NCBI GenBank assembly: GCA_000182565.2
Contig: KQ257450.1
Origin: Spizellomyces punctatus DAOM BR117
Lineage: Eukaryota
DNA: 46,364 bases
Reading direction: 5' to 3' (one strand)
Of this stretch, positions 32,534-46,364 are shown in pieces (within the stretch, counting starts at the first letter, position 1; the number at the start of each line of letters is the position of its first letter). The notes below the pieces were generated by a model, which searched no databases, was not told where the DNA came from, and saw only the letters and a list, made by a program, of their open reading frames with translations. Made by a program: the position numbers and the translations under genes.

Positions 32534-32585
32534 TTAGGGTAAGGGTTACAAGGGTGTTCTCGGGTTTTGGGGTTTACTTAGGGTT
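32534..32585 (+). repeat. Degenerate telomere-like (TTAGGG) tract
   Basis: ttagggtaagggttacaagggtgttc...ttagggtt. Confidence 0.55.
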
Positions 32586-32590
32586 GCATA

Positions 32591-33205
32591 TTAGTGGCTA
32601 TATTTCCTGCATATACACCTGATAATGTAGTCAAGGAACGGCGCCCGCTCCTTTCCCTTTTCCGCAGGTTCATGAGCTCGTGAAATTCTGCCATAAGAAT
32701 GCCAACTCAAAATATCCTCCACAGCGTGTGTGCCAATCAGTCTGTCTCCCGCCACCAACATGCGGCAGGCGGCATTCTCTGGTGGAATTATGTTCATATC
32801 ACTGAGCACCAGAAATACCACCTGTCCAATATCCGGCACACGTTTCGCCGCGTCCGAGATCATTAAACCCAGCACAGCGCGGCCGGTGCGCGTGCATCGC
32901 TCCATCGCCGTAACCTTCGACACAATGTCGGTCCATTCAATGGGCTCCGGCCCGGTGTCCAATGAAAACGGATAGATCACGCCCTCCGGCCTGGGGAAGA
33001 TGTCGTGCACCAATAATGCAATGGCCAAGGCAATCTGCTGAGCTCCTGTAACCCATGCCAGATACATATTCAGTGCAACGCGGACGTCGGGAAGAACTGC
33101 TTTGAACACGGGTGCTGCCTTTTCAACCACGTCCTGCCACTCGCGATCCAAATCGGCTACTTCGGGCGGGATGTGGGCTTCGCCAAGAGGTGCTTGTCTC
33201 TTCAT
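32591..33205 (-). CDS. Hypothetical protein, 204 aa, no recognised domain
   Basis: Uninterrupted ATG-started ORF with protein-like composition; could instead be the last exon of a decayed gene. Confidence 0.45.
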   Translation of the reverse strand: MKRQAPLGEAHIPPEVADLDREWQDVVEKAAPVFKAVLPDVRVALNMYLAWVTGAQQIALAIALLVHDIFPRPEGVIYPFSLDTGPEPIEWTDIVSKVTAMERCTRTGRAVLGLMISDAAKRVPDIGQVVFLVLSDMNIIPPENAACRMLVAGDRLIGTHAVEDILSWHSYGRISRAHEPAEKGKERAPFLDYIIRCICRKYSH

Positions 33206-35010
33206 CGCATGGGCACGCTCTATTATGCTTTTCGCGGTATCTATGTGATTCTTACCAGGTCGTCAGTAGACATAGCTTCAATATTACAGTGGTGTGTGAC
33301 TCCCCGAGGGATGGCTGATATACCACGCTATTACCACTCCACCACCACCGTTGCTCAATGGGGCACCATTTTTGGGGCAGTGTTAATGCATTCGTCTCGG
33401 TGTGGGTGGACATGCGGGTATATCACAATATAAACGTATTGTACCGTCGATTAACCACATGACCAGACGCGTTATAGATCAGATCTTGATCGTTCGCGTT
33501 GCAACAACTAGGCTTTCGACAACACAAATGCAGACAATAACACAATTAACGACTGATTTTGGGCGCATAAAGCAACTAATTCAGAAAGTGTTTTAACAAG
33601 CTTGTAGCGTAGATTCAGGGCTTTCTAGAACCATTTTGGTCTTGTTAATACGTTAATAACTCGCAAAGTCATCCAAGTTACTGTCCCATGACAATCTCGA
33701 ATGAAATCAATCAATTAATTCCGAAAGTTAAAACCATCAGTTAGTTTGGTACAACTCACTTTATCAACAACGAATTTGATCGATCTGAACACTTCATGTT
33801 ATTCTTTCTTAACAGCTGGCTGCTGGAAATCAACGCTTTGCTGCCATCGCTTGCAGCAGAAGCTTGATTTGACTATGACCTAAAACACGCCATGTTGCAG
33901 GACTGCTTTGATGTAGTGGATTTGGAGCGACGGTAAGCCGTGTAGGCGGGTTTGATCTCGTCTACAACGATGGACCAGTTCGACATGAGAGGACAAGTAA
34001 CTATGCTTCGTATTTGTGTATGTTTATCTTTTCTTTTGTTTTTCACCCATCTAATCAAAAGATAAACAAACTGACACTCTTTCTCCTCCCTCTATACCAA
34101 TCTTACGTTTAAATATAACCAGGATGTTATCAACCCATTCTGCGAGCCCCATATATGAAGAAAAGGTTTGGGAATGCCCCCGGACCATCACCGCCTAACC
34201 CTGATGTATCTGGAAGGAGTGGTGGAGCTTCTGTTCCTCTATCAGCGCCTTGCATTGGCATCACTGTTTCCGTCTCTGTGTCGGATGGGCCGCGATAATA
34301 TGCATGAAATAACTGGTTATCTTTTGTTGCGAAGTTTCATTTTTATTTTTTGGTCGAGTAGCACTTGACTAATTTGTACTAAAGACAGCAGAGCTAGCCC
34401 CAACCCCCATTCATTTGAAAGGATAGATTGCGTCCGTATGTCTTGACGGCAGGATATATTTCACAGGCCATATATGAGCGTCATCTGCCATGTTTAAAGA
34501 ACAAAGCCGATGTACGTCGCATGTACCAGCACGGTACCTGCAGATTTCAATGTGACGAATGTAAGTCAGAACAGTCACTCAGCGGTCATTTAGCGCACCA
34601 AATCCAAGCCCACCACCCACAAAACTGGAGAACCTCGGGGAGTGGCATAGGTGATATTTCACGCCCATATCCACGTTTTGGCCTGCTTGATTTTGCCAGA
34701 GTGAACATGCTTGGAATGAAAAAAAAAACGTACCATTATATCATTACAACAGCCAATACCGCCAAATTCCCAGCATTCCAGGAAACGCTGCATATCACGG
34801 TCCAGATTTTATTCAGAGAACGACTCCTTTTAATAAACCAGGTCAATCTCTACTGTCCTGCTACCTTGCCCCAAGTCCCGAAGTACAAGAACTTCGGATA
34901 TAGAATTTCCACCCTCCTCCTAACCGCCCACCTAAAATTCCGTCATTCAACAAGCTTCCATATATACTCTAGAATATTTCTACGAATGGTATAGTATCCG
35001 AGGAGAGATC

Positions 35011-38000
35011 TTATCTCTGCTTATCCCGATTAACAAAAGTAAGCAGCACGAACGCAATAATGCGCCAGACGCATCCAATCGCAAGCATCAACACAACACT
35101 CAGTGTGGTGCGTCCGGTAACGTATCCGAATACCTTAGCGGATTCTTCCGTTAAATACACGTCCTTAAACGGCATGATGGATTCCGAGTCTGTCGTTTTT
35201 TTTCCAGAACAGAAAGGCCCAAGGTCAATACTGTCATTTGTGTAAAAGCTGGACAAGGCACAGGGGAAAACATGGCAGCATAACCTACATTGCGCCTCAG
35301 CAGCCCATTTGTTGAAACTGATCGCCCACAAAAAGTCGATGCCCCAGTCCCGCGCCTGAACCAGGGTCGGACCGAACCCGGAGAATACAGCATGGAATAA
35401 CCCAACGACAACCGCCAGGAGCGCCGCATTGTCCCTTTTCACGATAGTCGATACCGTAGCCGCGACACCATACACCCCGAAAAATTGAAGGAGAATCAAA
35501 ACGTACTGAATCGCGAAAGGTACTAAAGGCTGAGCAAAGAAGTAGTATACGGCGCTGAAATGTAGGGAAGATAGGGTGAAACGATAGACGGTGCCGATGG
35601 TTTTACCCTTATGCCGCAACATGCATTAGACACAGCTCGGTATGGTAAAGAGCAAACACTTGAGCGAAATCCGAAAACTTACAACATAGTAGGAAAATCT
35701 GGAATGGCCGGCTGCAGCTTCTCTCCAAAAGACCGGCTTTTCCTCACCAAAAACTTTTACACCCGCTGGAGCACCGGCAAGCCCGATACTCATTCCAATC
35801 AACAACCCGTAGAGTGCAACAATATACTCCAGAGGGGCTGGACTCATCTTCGTGTACGGCAGCTTCCACACCCCATAGTAGAGTTCACCTTGATCGGCCA
35901 TCGCGACACCCATAAGCAAACCGGCAGCAGTACCGACAAAGACTTCGAGAACTAAACTGGACAGAGTACGTTCCTGTTGGACAAGGTAGCGGTTGTGACA
36001 GTGATATATTTGCCAGAAAATGTTTGCCCCGCGTGTTCGCCGAAGTGTCGGGACATGTTCGTGGAACTCTGTGTCTGATACTGATTGGAGACCGTCGATA
36101 TCTCCATCGCCGGCAGACCGTTTTTCCCAAGCAACTACTAGATCGTCAACAGTTATGTTCTGAAGGTTGTTTATCCCGCGCCCCGAAAGGATGTCCATGA
36201 GAACGTCGGCGGTGTTTGCAGTTGGAGCAAACTAAAAATGATGGAAACAAATTGGCAAAAGGTCAAATGCCCAAACACTGCATATAGGTTTCCAAGGATG
36301 AGAGCAAAAGGTGCCTAACCTGAAATCCCATAGCCTCAAAATACGTCTTGGCTTCGTTCACCGGGCCAAGGTACGCCGTTAAACCCCCAGGGGCAATCAT
36401 CAAAAGATCATCAAATCTCTCAAAGATTTCCACTCGGGGCTGATGAATAACAGCTACGAGTGTCAGCCCGAGATGGGTAAGACTACTCATGATGTCCGCT
36501 ACATCAAGGGCTGCAGTGGCATCCAACCCCGAGGTTGGCTCGTCCAAGAAGATGGCTAGCGGAACCGCCGCGAGTTCCATGCCGATATTGACCCTTTTAC
36601 GCTGACCGCCAGAAACGCCGCGCGTAGTTTCATCACCAATGATGGTGTGGGCGACGTGGGACAGACTTCAAGAAAAAAAGAAAAAGTAACCACGTCAATA
36701 ACAGGATAACCATCAACAGCTATAGTCAAATGGGGCAAACAATGGGCAGAACGTACTTTAGAGCCGACAGCACTCCATGTACGTGCTCCTCGACATCTTT
36801 TGCTGACCAGTCTCCGGGAAGCCTGATTTTGGCGGAATGCAGTACATTCTCCCATACAGTCAGTTCACGTAACATGATGTCCTCCTGGGGGACGTATCCA
36901 ATAACTTTTCGAAACACATGCATCTCTGATTCCTGGCCATTGACGTACAGTGTACCGCCCGTGCGCTTCACTTTTCCCATCAAGACGTTCATGAATGTTG
37001 TCTTGCCTGCAAGAAGGGAAGGAAAAAGGGAAGGAAAAAGCAGGTGGCGGAGATTTGATGAGTATTGGTCGATAAAAATGGATGCCGCAACTCTCCACCT
37101 ACCTGCTCCAGAGGGACCCATAATAGCCGTCATTCTCCCCGGGCGAATCTCGCCGGTCACTCCGCTCAGGATCGGCTTGCCATCAGGAAGTACGAGGGAA
37201 AGGTTTCGGAATTTAAAGTTCATGCTAAGATCCGTTCGGCCTCCCAACGCTCGGCTGAAGCCCTTGACAAGGCACGAGGTGTCAATGACTGACCGTTCGC
37301 GGGGGCTGTATGGCACAATCTCGGGGTCATCCTTTTTAATAAGGTCCAGCTAGATATGCGTCCCATACCACATGAGTATAACACCACCGAAAGATGTAAC
37401 AGAGAGAAACAACTGCCCATTACCTGAATCGTCTGATGAGCGACCATGTTCTCCGTCTCCTTAACATCCGCGTCTTTTCGCAGAAACCGCTGGGACCACG
37501 CTGGCAACATTACGCTCAAGGGGGTCTCTGATGCCTTCAAAGCGGCAACACGACGAGCCAGAACGAACGCAAAAAGAACAAAGTCGAGGAGCAAAGCAAA
37601 GATAAGCGGGCCATAGTACATTTGCGAATGCGTTCCCTCGCCGCAGATCGAAAGACTGTCACACTTTATTGGAGCGCTGGATCCAGAATGGCTGGTATAT
37701 TAAGGTTGCGTACCGAGAAAAAGTGAGTGGCAAGTTTCGTTGGTTAAAAACGTAAAGTTCGTGAAAGGCGAAAACCAACAAGATCTCACCAGTAATATCC
37801 AGACGGGCTATGGAATAAATTACAAAGGAATGGGTGAGGGAAAAAGTGAGCAAGCGTCCGAGATGGAAACTCGCCACTAGCTTACCATCTGATCATCGTC
37901 TTCCAATCGGGACAGTAGTACCCAGAAGGACAGACAACGGGCTCATACAATCCCTGCGCCTGATGCAATAAACGTGCGGACAAATTCATTCGATAAACCC

Positions 38001-38398
38001 GGCCGTACGAGACAAAAGCAGGGCTCAGTTTGCAATGTTGGTACAGACCTGGCAAGCTTTTCCCTGTAACCTCAGCAGCTGACAGTCATCCGTCGGAGCG
38101 CAGTAAGATGGTAAGGACGCTGGGTTTTTGCTGTCGACATGCGGGCAGTAGTATCCGGGATCGCAGGCGTGGCGATCTGAGATAATGACAGGGACAGTTG
38201 TGTTGCCTGCCAAGCAGACGCTGGCATCCATATTGGACATACTTTGTTCATCAACTTAAAGCAAGAATAGCCTACAATTTCGGAACTAGAAAGTGCAGAA
38301 CAAGAGCTAAGTTGTATATAGGGCACGGCTTCCTTGGGGCTTATGTACTGGGGCTGTGGTATTGTCGGGATCCATCCTGCGCTCTGTGGGCCACTCAT
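35011..38398 (-). CDS. ABCG-family half transporter with N-terminal Cys-rich extracellular region; multi-exon
   Basis: Walker A GPSGAGKTT (intron-split), Q-loop GYVPQED, signature VSGGQRKRVNIG, Walker B IFLDEPTSGLD, IHQP, and an ABC2 membrane domain (EKPVFWREAAAG). N-terminal CDPGYYCP/CPSGYYC repeats. Start codon uncertain. Confidence 0.92.
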
Positions 38399-38825
38399 CT
38401 CGGCAACTCAGCAACTGCAACTATTTCCCGCTGGAATGGGGGCTGACGGAGTCCCACCGGACAGAAAAAAAAAACAATCTTGCGCCATCCAAGACAACCC
38501 CCAGCCAAACCCGCGCCAAAAAAACGGAAAGCAACAGAATACGGGCCTGGGTGCCGATCGTCCATTTTGCTTTTTATATGTGGGGAGCCCGCCTGCGTTC
38601 ATATTTTGCAAGCGCGGCAATGTAAGCGGCGCTGCGATTGGGTAGATGCCTCGTGGTTGCGAATCAAAATAGAATGCTTAGGTAGTTGTAGTTATAAATT
38701 TTGGTCATTATATTTTAGAGTTTAACCTCAAGCTCATCAAGGCGCGACAGAGTTTTGCAGTGACAGGCGGGAACGATTTCTAGTACGGACCTTTGGCCTA
38801 GACTTGAGCTTGTCCGCGCGCGTAA

Positions 38826-39125
38826 AAAAAACTGCTTACTGTTTCCCGATGGATCAAGGTTTCTGGCTTCGGATCCGCTCTCGCCTCCTCCTCTCAGCCA
38901 GGATGAAGGCTGAAGTCAACCAATTTCTCTCGGTCCTCAAACGCTCTCGCCTCATCTGGTTAGCTGCACTCAACAAAAACTGCCTACTTTTTCCAGATGG
39001 ATCAAGGTTTCTGGCTTCCGACCGGGTCTCGCCTCCTCCTCTGCTCAGCAAGGATGAAGGCTGAAGTCAACCAATTTCCCTCGGTCCTCAACCGCTCTCG
39101 CCTCATCTGGTTAGCTGCACTCAAC
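38826..39125. repeat. Tandem direct duplication of ~150 bp in the divergent ABCG/transaminase intergenic region
   Basis: Copies 38826-38974 and 38975-39125 share gatggatcaaggtttctggcttc...aggatgaaggctgaagtcaaccaattt...cgctctcgcctcatctggttagctgcactcaac. Confidence 0.92.
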
Positions 39126-39405
39126 CCACCATTTTTTGAAATCACAGTCAAGGCAAACTCCGAAACGTCGCGCGATGCAAGTTCTCTGTTGCTCAGCGTC
39201 GCTCAGTGTCGCTCTCAAAGCCGTCCAATTTTTTTTCTTCTATAACACGTTGGGCGAGAACGGGCCGACAGTGGGATTTATTCTCAGCCTCCCGCCATTA
39301 GGGCTCCATCGCCAACGTGCAACTTCTCTCCATCAAGTTTCGTGGTTAAGCGGAAGTTGTTGGGAGAATAAAGAGGCCGATCTGGGGCATCGCCATCCTG
39401 GACCC

Positions 39406-39413
39406 TATAAAAA
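39406..39413 (+). promoter_or_regulatory. TATA box candidate for the transaminase-reductase gene
   Basis: TATAAAAA about 110 bp upstream of ATG 39515. Confidence 0.5.
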
Positions 39414-39514
39414 ATCCCGCCTAGGACACGCCCCTTGAGACGCAACCACCATAGCAGCCATCAAGCACGACCTAAAGAGAAGAAGAAACTAATACCGTTC
39501 CAATTCCATAACCA

Positions 39515-42500
39515 ATGACCGCCAACAACCTACCCCCTCCCACCAACGTGGTCCGTGACGTCCGTGCGGACTTCATGTCTCTCCTGAACCTCGACGTGCA
39601 TTATCATCGAGGAGAAGGTGACGTTCTCTACCACCGCCCCCATCTTCCGGCTGTCCATAGAATTGGGAAAAAGTCGGCTGAAGAAGAAGAAGAGGCACAT
39701 GATGAGAAGCAAGAGGAAGAGATTGCGGTTCTGGATGCTCTTGGCGGGTATGGGTCCACGATCCTCGGCCATAACCATTCCGCGCCCAAACAAGAGTTGT
39801 TAAAATGTCTGACTGAGAACGCGGTGATGCATGCACAGTTTTCGAGGTATGTGTCAAGGGCGGCTCACGTTTCCCCATTGGTTTGCGGTAGTTTGACATG
39901 TTTCGCGTAGACGTAATGCCGCTGAAGAGCTCGGCGAACACCTGAACGACTTTGTTCAGGAAGCTTGGCGGACAAGGGATGACGATGATATTTCGCCCAA
40001 TTCCAGTCGGAACCGGTCTGAGAGTGAGGGTAGTACAATGGTGGCGACCGAGGTAGGTTCTAGGCCCGTTTTGCAAAGGCTTTCCACTGTTTCCTGGACA
40101 CTGGCAGTTGACACAATGGCTATGCGAACAGGTTCCAGCCTACAAAGCCATCCTTGTAAATACTGGCACGGAAGCCGTCGAAGCCGCCATCAAACACGCC
40201 CTACTAGACTGGCATCGAAGAGCCGACGAGGCATTGATCCGTTTAGGAGGGCCAACCCTCCATCCTTACGCTGCAGACGCTCTCGCAAACCTCCAGCCAG
40301 TCGTGATCGCCGTTGAAGGAAGCTTCCACGGCAAAACGGCGGGAAGTCTGGGACTCACTTTCAAATCCCAATTCCGTGCCATGTACGCCTCGACTTTCGA
40401 CCACCTACTCCGTGACGGCGGCGACATGAAAGCACCATCTCCTGCCTTTGAAGTCGTCCATCTGAAACGCAATGCCAGCGTGCAAGAAATTTCGGATATT
40501 TTCAACCGATATGCGATTGATATTCCCGGCAAACCACCCGGCACTCGACTTCCACCCGTGTATGCTAACGACAACCATCCCGTGCTGAAGCGCTTTTCCC
40601 GGGTTGTAGCGTTCATCTACGAGCCTGTACAAGGTGAAGCAGGTATTCATCCGCTCAGCCGCGAGCTGCTGTCTGCTGTTCACGCCTGCTGTGTCCGCGA
40701 CGGGCATGTCCCAATCGTTGCAGACGAGATTCAAAGTGGCCTGTATCGTACGGGCGCCCCATTGGCTTGCACCGCAGTGATGCCTCGAGAGCGGGAGTTT
40801 CCACCCGAATACATCTTGCTTGGCAAGTCTCTCGGAGGCGGGTTGGCCAAAGTTGCTGCTTGTATGGTCCGCAGCGATCGCTGGCAACAGGATTTCACCA
40901 TTGTCCACACCTCCACTTTTGCCGAGGACGATTTGTCGAGTCGTGTTTCTCTGGCGGCGATCAAAGCACTGCAACAAGAGGCATCCGACGGCAAACTTGC
41001 AAAACGTTCTAAAGAGTTTGAGACGCGGTTGAAGCAATTGGGTAGTGCTCTCAAAGCAAAGTATCCTCACATCGTGACGGACGTGCGTGGGAAAGGATTC
41101 TTTATGGGTGTCGAGCTGGGCGGCTTACTGTTTGAAAAGTCGCTTCCGAATGCTTTGGAGGTATTCGCCACTTATGATGCCGTCGGCTACCTTCTCGCCA
41201 GTTTCCTCCTACACCGGCACCACGTACGAGTCGGCGCGGCGTTGGGTGCTACTGGTGTGTTGAGAATTGAGCCAAGCTGCTTTGCCCAACCCGACTATGC
41301 TGATAAAATTATGAGCGGGATCGACCATGCATGTCATTTGATCGATAAGGTACCGTATACATACATATTCTGTGGTATTCTTTTCTCTGCCCAAATGCGC
41401 ATACTAAATGACGAATCGGAAACATCCGCTTTCTTTTGTTTTTCTTTTTCTTGTGCAGGGTTACATTGTGGACTTGACCGCCCATATGTGGACCCACTCT
41501 GGCTGTCTTCTAGGTGACAAAACGGTTTCTCTTCCCAATACCAACCGCAATCTCGCTTCCCGGCGTCAATACAAACACCTTCCGGTAACCTCCTTCCTCT
41601 CGCATGCCCTCGGACCAGACTCGCTGGTGAAAGCCGACCCACTCTTTGCACGCTTGTCTCGGACTGATGTGGAACGATTCTTGCGGATATCGGCATACTT
41701 TCCTGCGGAGAAATTTATGTCGATCCACGAAATGGTTGTGGAAGGCAATCAGGGGCAAGCGACTATTTTGAGGATTGTGTATTTGCCAGGGAGCGCAGCG
41801 TACTTTGAGCATTGCCTGAGGACTGGGAACGTGGATGCAGCGCAGCGTGTACGTGGAGCGTTCCTGCAAGAAGCGATAAGAGGGTCCAAAGTCGTCGGAC
41901 TGGGGGCATTCACGAGCATAGTGACATTGAACGGCACACTCCTTCCCCAAGTCCCGGGCTGCCCGGCCACAACGGGCAACTCGCTGACGACCGCCTCTGC
42001 CATCGAAGCTCTCTCGGCGCACCTGCACAGCCATAAAATGAACCCGAGTAAGCTCAAAGTCGCGGTCGTGGGCGCAGCCGGCAACATTGGATCGGTGTTG
42101 GCAGCAACGATTGCGCCCCATTTTGAGTCTGTGACGCTGGTTCACCGACAGGGAGTGGAGGAGGCACCCAAATTCCGAGCGGTGGCCGAGGAGATTGCAA
42201 AACTGCGCGGAGGGCGACGGACGACGACGACGAAACCTCTCGCGCACGGTTTGAACAAGGGCCCGAGCTTCCAACAGAACCTGAGTTTATCCTTTTACCG
42301 GGTGCTGGCAAAGTTTCACAAGTCCACGCGGCATCTGCCGGAACCACTGGGATCCAACGGGCTCTTGTCCTTTGTCAAATATAAGCAAAGCAACACGAAG
42401 AACAAGAAGCAAAACACCAGCAGCAGCAAGATCCATGCCCGACTTGCTCAAAAGGGCATTCTTGCGACGCAGGACATGAGTGCGGTACGAGACGCAGACG

Positions 42501-42970
42501 TGATTTTGGCAGCGGCGAACGTTGCACACGGACACGTCCTTACGTCGGAGCACCTAAAGCGGGGAGCGGTAGTACTTGATCTATCAGCGCCAACGGTAGT
42601 GGATCCGAGCGTGTTTGTGCAGCGACCCGATGTAGTGTGCATTGTGGGAGGGTTTTGCAGCATGCCCAAGCAGCAGCAGTTTTACTTTCCTGCTGGGTTG
42701 GCGCCCGAGGGGTTGATGTATGCGTGTTTGGCGGAGACGCTGTCGAGCGGGTTGGCAGGAAGCAAGGTTGCACTGGCGCTTGGCTCTCTGACGGAAGCCG
42801 ACGTGCGCAAGGCAGCGCAGATGGCGCACCGTGTTGGGGTGACACCTGCCCGCGGCAAGATTGGAGGAAAGGACCATGGAATGTCCGAGTTGGGGCGAGA
42901 CGGGAAGGGAGTGGACGTGGTGCATGTCGTCAAAAAGACTGAACGTCTGAACATGGTAGAAACCCGATAG
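39515..42970 (+). CDS. Class III (omega) aminotransferase fused to an acyl-ACP-reductase-like thioester reductase (TamH-like); 4 exons
   Basis: Exons 39515-39846, 39911-40052, 40132-41349 and 41459-42970 splice in frame. N-domain: LDALGGYGSTILGHNH, NTGTEAVEAAIK, SFHGKT, EPVQGEAG, ADEIQSGLYRTG, LGKSLGGG (PLP Lys), HTSTF. C-domain: GLGAFTSIV, TTGNSLT, VVGAAGNIG, YACLAET. Confidence 0.9.
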
Positions 42971-43357
42971 ATTCAGTAATATATATAATATTCAGATTCC
43001 AGTTTGTCCTGAAGGAATTTCCATCTTACCTTTCAGATGACGGGGGCGGCGACCACAACTTTAGCTTCTTTGCGCCAACTGTTCACACTTGAACTGTGCT
43101 ACCGTGATTATGTAACAAATGTAATTTACAATTTCTCCGCTCGGTCTGCCCGCATCCGGAGCCTGTCCGTTTCGCGGGCAGTTAGCCTTTTTGAGTTCTG
43201 GATTCCGCCCCCGGAGGGTGCCCGGAGGGGGGGAAACTACTAGTCCGTTTTGGCTGAGCATGGAGGAGGATCTAATAAAAGGGGAAAAGGGAACCCTCGG
43301 TCTCTCTCGCTTTCTGTCTCTTTCTCGCTCTGTCTCCATCATCCAGCGTGTCGCAAA

Positions 43358-45069
43358 ATGTCCAACGAGAACTCGACCACCAGCAAAGAGCATCATGTGT
43401 ACAATGTCATTGTTGTCGGTGCGGGCATCGCCGGTCTCACGGCGGCTAGAAAGTGCATACAGGCCGGTACGTTGTAGTAGGGCGCCACACACACACGCAC
43501 ACACCTCATTTGTCCCCTCCATATCCATATCACCGGTGAACAGGCCTAAAGGTCTTGGTCCTCGAAGCTCGCGACAGAGTCGGTGGCCGCACGCTCTCCA
43601 AACCTATCAATGACACTACTACTCCGCCTTACAGCATCGACCTCGGAGGAATGTGGATCAACCCAGAAACACAACCGCTCATCACGGCCATCGTCTCTGA
43701 ATTCAACCTCACCCCGTTTCCTCAACACCACTCAGGAAAAACCCTCATCGAACTCAAATCCGGCAACGTTGCCTCGTACGAGGGAGACATCCCTTCCATA
43801 TCCATCCCTTCTTTGCTCGATGTTCAGTGGGCCATCTTGAAGCTGGAGAAAATGGCAACAAAAGTCCCGCTCGATGATCCGACCGCGTGTGTCGACAGCT
43901 ACGAGTGGGATGCCGTCACACTGGCAGAGTGGATGCGGAGAAACCTGTGGACCTCCCAGGCCCGCCAAATGTTCGACATGGCTACCCGTGCCGTGCTCGG
44001 TGTCGACCCGGAAAACATTTCCTTGTTGTGGTTCCTCTTTTACTGCCATTCCGGTAAAGGTCTCCGGTCACTGCTGGAAGTCCAAGGCGCCCAAAAGATG
44101 CGCATCACACAAGGCGCTCAGAGCATCTCCAATAACCTCGCCGCAGCGCTGCCAAAGGGGACCGTCCTCTTAGACTCCCCCGTGCATGCCATCGTCTCCT
44201 CCTCGTCTTCCACTCGTGTATTCACAAGATCCAGCTCCCAACCCTATCATGCCCAAACCGTCATCCTGGCCCTCCCACCTCCTCAACTCGCCTCATTGAC
44301 CTTCACTCCGCCCCTGCCCCCTTCCAAAACCCATTTTCTCCAGAAAGCCTCGACAATGGGCTGTTTTACCAAAATGATTTGTCGCTACGAGTCTGCATTC
44401 TGGCGCGATCTTGGTCTCAGCGGAGAAATGGTATCTCATGTTGGCCCCGTCTCCCTCGTATTTGATTCCTCCAACGATGACGGAAGCGTGCCGTGCATGA
44501 CTGCTTTTGTCACGTCTGCCCAGGGTCGTGTGTGGGCTGACGGAGACGAGGATAGCAGGAGACAACAGGTGTTGCAGCATTTATATAGACTAGTGGGAGA
44601 TGAGCGAGTGCTGAAGCCCGTCGAGGTTGTTGAAATGGACTGGGGAAAGGAGCTTTATAGTGGCGGGTGTCCGGTGGCATCCTTGACGACCGGCGTGCTG
44701 ACAAGCCACGGGACTGAATCCCGTCGTCCGGTGGGCAACATTCATTTTGCGGGTACAGAAACCGCAACCGAGTGGTGCGGCTACATGGACGGTGCAGGTA
44801 TTTTTAAAGATGATCGTTGTACCTATTGACCCTACGTGTCCATGTCGCTAACGTTGCTTGAAACAGTACAATCGGGCCACCGAGCCGCAGACGAGGTGAT
44901 CGCGAAACTCCAAGGAAAGGTCTTTGCGCTGGTGTCTCCTAGGAAGGTCGGGAAACGATATGATGCAGAAACCAGCGGCTGGTGGATGATCGGTGCGGTT
45001 CTTGGTGCTGTTGCTGGGAGTTGGATCATGTTCTTCCAGAATGGAAACCGCGGGCTGTTTCAAGCTTGA
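43358..45069 (+). CDS. Flavin-containing monoamine oxidase (MAO-like) with C-terminal transmembrane anchor; 3 exons
   Basis: VIVVGAGIAGLTAA...LEARDRVGGRT, DLGGMWI, SGGCP, IHFAGTETATEWCGYMDGA, and a hydrophobic tail WWMIGAVLGAVAGSWIMFF. Confidence 0.92.
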
Positions 45070-45102
45070 TGGGTGTGATTTACTGTTGCAGTAGGAGATT
45101 CT

Positions 45103-45540
45103 GGGTTAGGGTTAGGGTTTACAAAGGTGTTCCCATGTGGGTAAAAATTTTCAAGTATTCAGAATTGAAAGTGACCTTAATAAGAGTTGTTGGCCACGGT
45201 CTAAAACACACATATCTGCAAAAAAATTAGAAAGTGTTCAGGTAAAGTGTGAGAAAAGGGTTAGGGTTATGAGGTGGTCTGAAATAGTGGGTTTGACAAA
45301 AAATGGTCAGATCCTCAAGGTCTCCTAATTAATATTGTTTCATATACTCATAAGAACAAAGGATTTTAAAATCACCAGGTCCTTTTCTGTTTTGCTCACA
45401 AAAAGTAAAAAAAAAAAAAAAAGTCCAAAAAATCCATATATATTCTTAAGAGTTATCTTACCAGAGCAGGAATATTACTGATGTAAATGTACCAGCCTAT
45501 TCTGCATATATGGGTTAGGGTTAGGGTTAGGGGTTAAGGG
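45103..45540 (+). repeat. Interstitial telomere-like TTAGGG tracts in an AT-rich segment
   Basis: gggttagggttaggg at ~45103, gggttaggg at ~45258, gggttagggttagggttaggggttaaggg at ~45512. Confidence 0.75.
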
Positions 45541-45765
45541 ATGTATTGGATAGTGCAATACAAACTACTGTCATTACACCAGTCTGAAAAGACACCCATC
45601 TGGTGGGGGAAGTTGTAAGGTAGACTTGTCCTTTGGTATTCGCACGCAATTGCGAACTTAGATTTTCGCGACGCGTCTCGTCGTCATATCACCATATATA
45701 GCTATAGTCATCATGTAGCCATGTATGGCCAAAGTATGGCGCAGCGCGTAACAGTAGTTCGATTA

Positions 45766-46364
45766 TGTAAGCCCCGCCGCGCCGACGACCTGTCAAAGTC
45801 GTTCGGTTCCATGGCGGCCCCGTAGTTAGAGGACTAATTGTCCCTTTATTGCATAGCGCCAATCACTTCCGATTGGTGCAAGAGGGACCACACTGGCAGA
45901 GGCTGGAAATCTCATGCCAATGCCCCGCCAAAGGAGGGAGCAAGCATAAAAAAGTGCTGCTCCAAAGTCCCTCAAGAGGGAGGAGAAGAACTAGCCTAGT
46001 TAGCAACTCAAGGAACTATCAATAGTTCCCTTTCTCTTGTATTAACAACAAAGTCTTTATACAGCCCTCTCACAGGGCCCAATGATTTGCAAAAAATCAT
46101 CAACTAGAGCAATCTGGTCAATTGATGTTACATGGTAGCACCACCTGAGACTACCACACACACTATGGAATCAGAAGACAGTCGACCCTCTACTGTCTTC
46201 AACCCATTTGCCTCTGATAGAAACTCAGAAGTCTCTACCTTCAGCTCAGAGCCCCATGAATGATCCAAAATGTCCAAAGATGATCACCTGTTCATCACTG
46301 CCAAGGAAGAGGGAGAGGACCCAGTCTTCCAATTCGAGGCTGCACCTGGGAACAACCAGCACCG
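45766..46364 (+). mobile_element. 5' end of an LTR retrotransposon: LTR 45766-46132, primer-binding site 46133-46144, decayed gag-like start from 46165
   Basis: TGTAA...TTACA inverted termini 367 bp apart, followed immediately by TGGTAGCACCAC (initiator-Met-tRNA-type PBS). The ORF from ATG 46165 has an in-frame TGA at 46261 and then stays open to the window end. Confidence 0.75.

What the first reader, a model, noticed from the sequence alone, without database searches (positions are those of the whole stretch)
35011..45069. Putative make-export-destroy amine cluster: ABCG transporter, TamH-like synthase, monoamine oxidase
Seen: the fusion gene is divergent from an ABCG transporter (~1.1 kb intergenic) and is followed ~390 bp later, on the same strand, by a membrane-anchored MAO; the trio is flanked by repeat or decayed DNA. 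Known: MAO oxidises primary amines to aldehydes, reversing the net transaminase step, and ABCG proteins export lipophilic molecules. Inference: a small secondary-metabolite cluster for a membrane-active fatty amine with export and self-protection or turnover. No TamA-like adenylation-ACP partner or pyrrole genes are in the window, so the acyl donor and end product should differ from tambjamine.
Basis: partly seen in the sequence, partly recalled or inferred. Interest (0 to 1): 0.85.

Follow-up and report, generated by a model that had tools for sequence, protein, structure and literature searches.

The report
Bacterial amine-making enzyme in a chytrid
A chytrid fungus carries an intact gene of bacterial origin for an enzyme that probably turns a fatty acyl group into an amine; its two neighbours, a transporter and an amine oxidase, are ordinary chytrid genes, so a shared pathway is possible but unproven.

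Summary
The three genes are real, intact and arranged as described (Spizellomyces punctatus SPPG_00865-00867), between LTR-retrotransposon remnants at a scaffold end. The middle gene is a TamH-architecture class III transaminase fused to an acyl-ACP-reductase-fold thioester reductase, with the catalytic Lys390 and Cys987 kept. It is single-copy and has three introns. Its sister is one Chytridiales protein, and both nest among bacterial proteins apart from PtTamH, so it looks like an old transfer from bacteria. The cluster reading is weaker. The monoamine oxidase is a single-copy chytrid gene, also present in relatives where no fusion was found. The ABCG belongs to a large chytrid family. In the other chytrid with the fusion, both listed ABCG relatives lie on other contigs. 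None of 36 bacterial loci has an amine oxidase nearby, the spacers share no excess motifs, and no acyl donor is adjacent. For a link: an amine oxidase neighbour is rare by chance (about 0.2%) and the block is unusually GC-rich. Any functional link is about 40% likely; the make-export-destroy story about 20%. The scan noted this enzyme type before in a bacterial genome.

The parts
35011..38240 (-). ABCG half-transporter gene (SPPG_00865, 813 aa, 10 exons): Cys-rich N-terminal region, ATP-binding domain, ABC2_membrane_7 membrane domain
   Evidence: Spliced match to P0241 with 9 GT-AG introns; PF00005 and PF19055; 105 other family members listed, mostly from chytrids
38241..39514 (.). Divergent spacer, 1274 bp, unique in the genome; holds a ~150-bp tandem duplication at 38824-39125
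39515..42970 (+). Transaminase-thioester reductase fusion gene (SPPG_00866, 1067 aa); exons 39515-39846, 39911-40052, 40132-41349, 41459-42970; TA domain about residues 1-570, TR domain about 607-1037
   Evidence: model; PF00202 and PigE/AAR models; fold matches CrmG Z 33.8 and SeAAR 6JZQ Z 29.9; K390, G769/G772, C987 invariant in 10 aligned rows
42971..43357 (.). 387-bp spacer between fusion and MAO
43358..45069 (+). Flavin monoamine oxidase gene (SPPG_00867, 521 aa); exons 43358-43466, 43544-44797, 44867-45069; C-terminal hydrophobic tail
   Evidence: PF01593 E 1.5e-51; best solved relative 'Amine oxidase [flavin-containing] A' 1O5W, E 5e-76; tree and hydropathy
33553..33729 (.). Solo LTR-like repeat; two copies bracket a retrotransposon with RVT_2, gag and integrase elsewhere on the scaffold
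   Evidence: L252
45614..46360 (+). LTR plus leader/gag start of a chromodomain-integrase LTR retrotransposon; the scaffold ends inside it
   Evidence: L248, L249; window end equals contig end

Best explanation
The fusion gene is an intact, horizontally acquired TamH-type enzyme. Its reductase domain takes an acyl group from a thioester onto Cys987 and reduces it with NAD(P)H to an aldehyde; its PLP domain (Lys390) then transaminates the aldehyde to a primary amine, probably a fatty amine. The acyl donor is supplied in trans (acyl-CoA or a carrier encoded elsewhere). The ABCG and the MAO are native chytrid genes with general roles (export; amine catabolism) that came to lie beside it in a transposon-flanked island, and they do not form a dedicated pathway with it. 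Shown: gene structures, domain identity, catalytic residues, fold, phylogenetic position. Inferred: activity, direction, substrate, donor, and the independence of the neighbours.
For: Fusion: catalytic residues align with PtTamH K340, C887, G707/710/713. Model pLDDT 84, pTM 0.85; TR domain overlays SeAAR over 326 residues, rmsd 3.6. Sister to Chytridiales sp. JEL 0842 HDV05_005430 (SH-aLRT 99), inside a clade whose named members are Deltaproteobacteria, Bdellovibrionales, Bacteriovorax, Acidobacteriia and Proteobacteria MAGs, split from the PtTamH clade at 100. Neighbours: the MAO groups with three other Spizellomycetales (95), then Chytridiales (99), then an amoeba (100); its end branch (0.37) is within the range of its orthologs (0.27-0.49). 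No fusion relative between 39% and 100% identity was listed although those genera are in the collection. In JEL 0842 the fusion is on a 136,339-bp contig and 2 of 2 listed ABCG relatives are on contigs of 200,813 and 86,108 bp. MAO and ABCG relatives are on different contigs in Fimicolochytrium and Gaertneriomyces. 0 of 36 bacterial TA-TR loci have an MAO within the fetched flanks. No motif excess between spacers.
Against: About 8 loci of the genome hit PF01593 among 9,422 proteins, so an amine-oxidase-family neighbour has roughly a 0.2% chance, and the other neighbour is a transporter. The fusion+MAO block has GC 0.542, above all 70 random windows of that size (mean 0.477, max 0.511); GC3 of the three genes (0.565, 0.593, 0.625) is reached by only 3, 3 and 1 of 46 long frames. 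The direct neighbours of the JEL 0842 gene could not be seen, and its MAO was not among the 120 of 4,611 hits listed. PtTamH did not accept acyl-CoA, and no plain adenylation-ACP didomain was seen in the 7 carrier loci examined, so the donor is unexplained. Expression is unshown.
Confidence: 0.52

Rival explanations
1. One reading: a young, lineage-specific cluster. The fusion makes a membrane-active fatty amine, the ABCG exports it, and the MAO, recruited by relocation, removes the excess for self-protection.
For: Absence of linkage in relatives that lack the fusion does not test this model.
Against: No acyl donor nearby; MAO single-copy, vertical at order level, not accelerated; ABCG relatives unlinked in the other fusion-bearing chytrid; no shared spacer motifs; introns are not GC-raised (0.43-0.47 against a rough 0.47 baseline).
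Confidence: 0.2
2. A catabolic or detoxifying cluster. Both enzymes run towards the aldehyde: MAO and the TA domain deaminate incoming alkylamines, and the TR domain works backwards (aldehyde + CoA + NAD+ to acyl-CoA) to feed beta-oxidation, while the ABCG expels surplus.
For: It removes the futile cycle and the need for an ACP partner. PtTamH is NADH-specific, and an NAD-linked enzyme in a eukaryotic cytosol would face a mostly oxidised pool (recalled, not from a call). Transaminases are reversible (established knowledge).
Against: Bacterial relatives sit in biosynthetic contexts: PEP-utiliser enzyme in 7 of 36, AMP-binding enzyme in 7 of 36, SPT-like enzyme in 4 of 36. No passage on a reverse AAR reaction was found in the two reviews searched. 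PtTamH was inactive on acyl-CoA.
Confidence: 0.13
3. Tailoring rather than destruction: as PigB oxidises the PigE product in prodigiosin biosynthesis, the MAO oxidises the fusion's amine to an imine or heterocycle that the ABCG exports.
For: PigE is a TR/TA fusion whose product is oxidised by PigB. One Streptomyces locus with the PigE domain order has a PF01593 gene 2 kb downstream (L083). Best NCBIfam hit of the fusion is the PigE model, far below its cut-off (233 of 850 bits).
Against: The window MAO is MAO-A/B-like and vertically inherited; domain order is TA-TR, not PigE's; no gene for a keto-acyl precursor is nearby.
Confidence: 0.08
4. The fusion is a decaying or silent relic with no current function.
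For: Patchy distribution; expression not shown; a poorly ordered insertion at residues 825-881.
Against: Full open frame with canonical introns, all catalytic residues kept, and a long-diverged sister gene (31% identity over 1038 aligned positions) that also keeps Lys and Cys.
Confidence: 0.07

Closest known systems
PtTamH, Pseudoalteromonas tunicata tambjamine YP1 pathway (WP_009837236.1; PMC9594044)
   Same: N-terminal class III transaminase plus C-terminal AAR-like thioester reductase; K340/C887/GxxGxxG conserved; 29% identity over 784 aligned positions, E 4e-72.
   Different: Different clade; fungal host with introns; no TamA, TamT or pyrrole genes nearby; substrate untested; extra insertions.
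PigE with PigB, Serratia prodigiosin MAP branch (PMC8341465; PDB 4PPM)
   Same: Same two domains fused; a downstream oxidase acts on the product.
   Different: Opposite domain order; score far below the family cut-off; no PigD-type partner; the window oxidase is MAO-A/B-like.
Cyanobacterial acyl-ACP reductase (PDB 6JZQ) and CrmG aminotransferase (PDB 5DDS)
   Same: Closest solved folds of the two domains: Z 29.9 and 33.8.
   Different: Stand-alone proteins. The AAR fold also occurs in the carmabin terminal amidation domain (9E4S, Z 27.6; bioRxiv 2024.10.28.620694), so the fold alone does not fix the chemistry.
Mammalian monoamine oxidases A and B
   Same: Full-length match, covalent-FAD Cys motif, second cage tyrosine, C-terminal membrane tail.
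   Different: Pro replaces the cage tyrosine after the Cys (MAO-A Tyr407, numbering recalled). This is shared by 60 of 120 listed homologs, so it is a subfamily trait and not a local specialisation.
Chytrid PF19055-type ABCG half-transporters
   Same: Same architecture; 46-50% identity to 11 tested chytrid relatives.
   Different: Nothing distinctive found; orthology unresolved; substrate unknown.

Membership tests
TamH-type TA-TR fusion | N-terminal class III transaminase with PLP lysine | tested here: met
   PF00202 E 6.7e-39; D356 and K390 invariant in 10 rows
TamH-type TA-TR fusion | C-terminal AAR-fold reductase with GxxGxxG and catalytic Cys | tested here: met
   G769/772/775 and C987; SeAAR Z 29.9 over 326 residues
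TamH-type TA-TR fusion | Converts acyl-ACP to a primary fatty amine with NADH and L-Glu | not testable with these tools
   Needs an enzyme assay
Tambjamine (tam) pathway | Same clade as PtTamH | tested here: not met
   Separated by a branch of SH-aLRT 100 in a 54-row tree
Tambjamine (tam) pathway | TamA-type adenylation-ACP partner and condensing enzyme | tested here: inconclusive
   None in the window frames scanned. 7 of about 10 carrier loci examined show other architectures. The PEP-utiliser neighbour of bacterial relatives found no match; one unrelated-looking PPDK_N gene lies on C8.
PigE | TR-TA domain order and family score above cut-off | tested here: not met
   Order is TA-TR; 233 bits against 850
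MAO-A/B-type flavin monoamine oxidase | PF01593 fold, covalent-FAD Cys motif, membrane tail | tested here: met
MAO-A/B-type flavin monoamine oxidase | Two-tyrosine aromatic cage | tested here: not met
   Pro413 in place of the first Tyr; Tyr450 kept
Fungal biosynthetic gene cluster | Linkage conserved in other genomes | tested here: inconclusive
   Unlinked in 3 of 3 genomes where contigs could be compared, but ABCG orthology is unresolved and the neighbours of the JEL 0842 gene were not visible
Fungal biosynthetic gene cluster | Shared promoter motif | tested here: not met
   Shared k-mers at or below random in all 8 settings; short or degenerate motifs could be missed
Fungal biosynthetic gene cluster | Co-expression | not testable with these tools
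   No usable RNA data
Fungal biosynthetic gene cluster | Self-contained pathway including precursor supply | tested here: not met
   Only three genes between the repeats; none activates an acyl group

The most novel reading that the evidence does not exclude
A chytrid took a bacterial fatty-amine synthase, cut it loose from its ACP partner so that it works on fungal acyl-CoA or another fungal carrier, and recently gathered its only MAO and an ABCG pump beside it into a three-gene module that makes, exports and turns over (or, run backwards, consumes) alkylamines. This would be a fatty-amine pathway in a fungus and a cluster caught soon after assembly.
Probability: 0.3. Interest if true: 0.78.

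Novelty: new member of a known kind. Interest (0 to 1): 0.45.

Why it matters
TamH-type enzymes are of interest as one-protein converters of acyl thioesters to amines, but PtTamH needs its ACP partner. A fungal, intron-bearing member without an adjacent partner is a natural candidate for an acyl-CoA-accepting version, and it points to an unknown amine metabolite in chytrids. It is also a bacterial transfer missing from the 4 xenologs that one published screen lists for this species. If the neighbours prove linked, the locus would be a small model of cluster assembly from one foreign and two native genes.

Tried and rejected
RNA evidence: no RNA holder was listed. Of 4 runs laid, three were low-depth contigs running through introns and spacers, so DNA; the raw-read run gave 382 short records, 315 only partly on the stretch, and no joints. 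Nothing follows for expression. Viral vehicle: 16 viral loci matched, all only in the TA domain at 22-27%. Metagenome scan: 79 loci returned, best segments at most 37% identical, none recognisably chytrid. Subtelomeric position: considered because of TTAGGG motifs, but the scaffold ends inside a retrotransposon and has no telomere array, unlike the starts of C8 and C10; unproven. Tambjamine or prodigiosin pathway: rejected (clade, missing partners). Co-transfer of MAO with the fusion from bacteria: rejected. Pro for Tyr in the MAO cage as a specialisation: rejected, 60 of 120 homologs share it. A sigma-70 promoter scan is not meaningful for a fungus. Literature support for a reverse AAR reaction or for MAO activity on long alkylamines was not found in the listings and passages seen. 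Atlas search gave only bacterial AAR-like clusters. The 223-aa frame at 32594-33262 had no Pfam hit.
Full report
Observation. The window is the last 46,364 bases of contig C1 of a 24.1-Mb eukaryotic genome; the protein search names the three genes as Spizellomyces punctatus SPPG_00865, 00866 and 00867. Exon models built from the sequence reproduce the database proteins exactly, with GT-AG introns throughout: ABCG 38240-35011 (minus), fusion 39515-42970, MAO 43358-45069. The divergent gap is 1274 bp and the tandem gap 387 bp. To the left lie a guanylate-binding-protein gene, COG3 and PARG. The flanking repeats are a ~175-bp solo LTR at 33553-33729 and an LTR plus gag start at 45614-46360. The scaffold breaks inside the second element, so a chromosome-end position is not shown.

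The fusion enzyme. Residues up to about 570 are a class III transaminase (PF00202; best solved relatives CrmG and PigE). Residues 607-1037 of a confident model (pLDDT 84) overlay cyanobacterial acyl-ACP reductase at Z 29.9. The PtTamH paper names K340, C887 and G707/710/713 as the key residues and shows C12-ACP, not C12-CoA, converted to dodecylamine with NADH (PMC9594044, parts 1-2 of 5 read). These align with K390, C987 and G769/772/775 here. The gene is single-copy.

Origin. Among the 120 best of 627 fused homologs, the only other row with a eukaryote name is Chytridiales sp. JEL 0842 HDV05_005430; most rows are unnamed. A word-free search of 1.84 billion representatives ranks the same protein first; that library hides relatives above 50% identity, which would have shown if they were 710-2025 residues long. 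One further named eukaryote appeared among 20 hits looked up, the green alga Raphidocelis subcapitata. In a 54-row tree (quick IQ-TREE, LG+G4, no mixture model, no bootstrap) the two chytrid proteins are sisters (99), the alga falls elsewhere in the same large clade, and PtTamH is on the other side of a branch at 100; a 117-row FastTree agrees on the chytrid pair. I read this as an old transfer from bacteria into chytrids with many losses, or a later chytrid-to-chytrid transfer; the donor lineage is not resolved. The supplement of a published HGT screen lists 4 xenologs for this species, not this one (PMC11291939, supplement files searched). Five literature searches listed no paper on this gene or on eukaryotic TamH homologs (listings only). 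bioRxiv supplements were closed.

Bacterial context. Of 159 loci fetched, 36 hold both domains in TA-TR order. None has an MAO match at E 1e-5 within flanks of up to 10 kb (several are shorter); 7 have a PEP-utiliser enzyme, 7 an AMP-binding enzyme and 4 an SPT-like enzyme (queries taken from two of these loci). Pfam scans of neighbours from 13 of them show lipid-type genes. The MAO was therefore not carried along from bacteria, and the PEP-utiliser partner has no match in this genome.

The neighbours. The MAO is MAO-A/B-like and the only close copy in the genome. It groups with Fimicolochytrium, Thoreauomyces and Gaertneriomyces (95), then Zopfochytrium (99), then an amoeba, matching the orders but not the families, since Gaertneriomyces joins the Powellomycetaceae at 90. 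No fusion was listed for those genera. The ABCG is one of a large chytrid family; 11 of 11 relatives tested match it better than its paralog on C3, but the tree does not resolve its orthologs. Contig lengths show MAO and ABCG relatives on different contigs in Fimicolochytrium and Gaertneriomyces, and fusion and both listed ABCG relatives on different contigs in JEL 0842. The JEL 0842 MAO was not among the 120 of 4,611 hits shown, so that pairing is untested.

Is the adjacency more than chance? About 8 loci hit PF01593 (lower bound) among 9,422 proteins, so one of two neighbours being of that family has a chance near 0.2% (my arithmetic). The measure was chosen after the fact, and accessory genes tend to collect near transposons (general knowledge), but it is not negligible. 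The fusion+MAO block is more GC-rich than all 70 random windows, and GC3 of all three genes is in the top 7% of 46 long frames; introns are not raised, which fits codon-level selection as well as shared history. Against co-regulation, the spacers share no more k-mers than random pairs in any of 8 settings. No expression data could be obtained.

Acyl donor. The genome has 27 PF00550 matches at about 10 loci. The 7 loci examined are an NRPS, an A-oxidase-ACP-ACP-TE protein, two adenylation-carrier-reductase proteins, a reducing PKS with a terminal reductase, and two adenylation-carrier-hexapeptide proteins. None is a plain TamA-like didomain and none is near. The AAR fold is also used by a putative amidation domain (bioRxiv 2024.10.28.620694, passages), so the product class is inferred from the fused transaminase and the likeness to TamH.

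Verdict. The enzyme is a real, intact, bacteria-derived TamH-type fusion in a fungus: a new member of a known kind, with an open question about its donor and product. The three-gene cluster is neither shown nor excluded. I put about 0.5 on independent neighbours, 0.2 on make-export-destroy, 0.13 on a catabolic cluster, 0.08 on tailoring and 0.07 on a relic.

Noticed in passing
L025, L030, L033, L036, L037, L050, L156: In 7 of 36 bacterial loci the TA-TR gene lies beside a PPDK_N/PEP-utiliser enzyme (architecture recalled as PigC/TamQ-like), often with SPT-like, SDR, desaturase, MMPL or CarS-like genes: a possible uncharacterised amino-lipid pathway in Bdellovibrionota and Deltaproteobacteria.
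   Followed up: partly
P0466 (Raphidocelis subcapitata Rsub_09211); P0449, P0056, P0106, P0048: A green alga has the same fusion, not sister to the chytrid pair. A group of unnamed metagenome proteins, some with long low-complexity insertions, may be a further eukaryotic lineage.
   Followed up: partly
P0001 residues 825-881; P0018 at the same place: Both chytrid proteins carry an insertion in the reductase domain that the closest bacterial relatives lack; it is hydrophobic in P0018 and poorly ordered in the model of P0001. A membrane-binding role is possible.
   Followed up: no
L123-L124 (G000:C3, about 38600-46800): A multidomain gene with adenylation, flavin amine-oxidase-family, two carrier and thioesterase domains.
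   Followed up: no
L209 (G000:C8:499017-502487): A gene with an apparent signal peptide and a PPDK_N domain, unusual for a fungus and possibly bacterial in origin.
   Followed up: no
L126, L129 (G000:C22, C4): Two adenylation-carrier-hexapeptide-repeat genes of NRPS-like type.
   Followed up: no
window 38824-39125: A ~150-bp tandem duplication (89-95% alike) in the divergent spacer, unique in the genome.
   Followed up: no
window 45102-45532 and 32534-32583: Short TTAGGG runs just downstream of the MAO and GBP genes; similar short runs are scattered through the genome.
   Followed up: partly
window 32594-33262 (-): A 223-codon open frame with no Pfam hit, single-copy, between the GBP gene and the solo LTR.
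   Followed up: partly
L252:4923-9530: A retrotransposon combining an RVT_2 (copia-type) reverse transcriptase with a chromodomain and a Ty3-like capsid hit.
   Followed up: no
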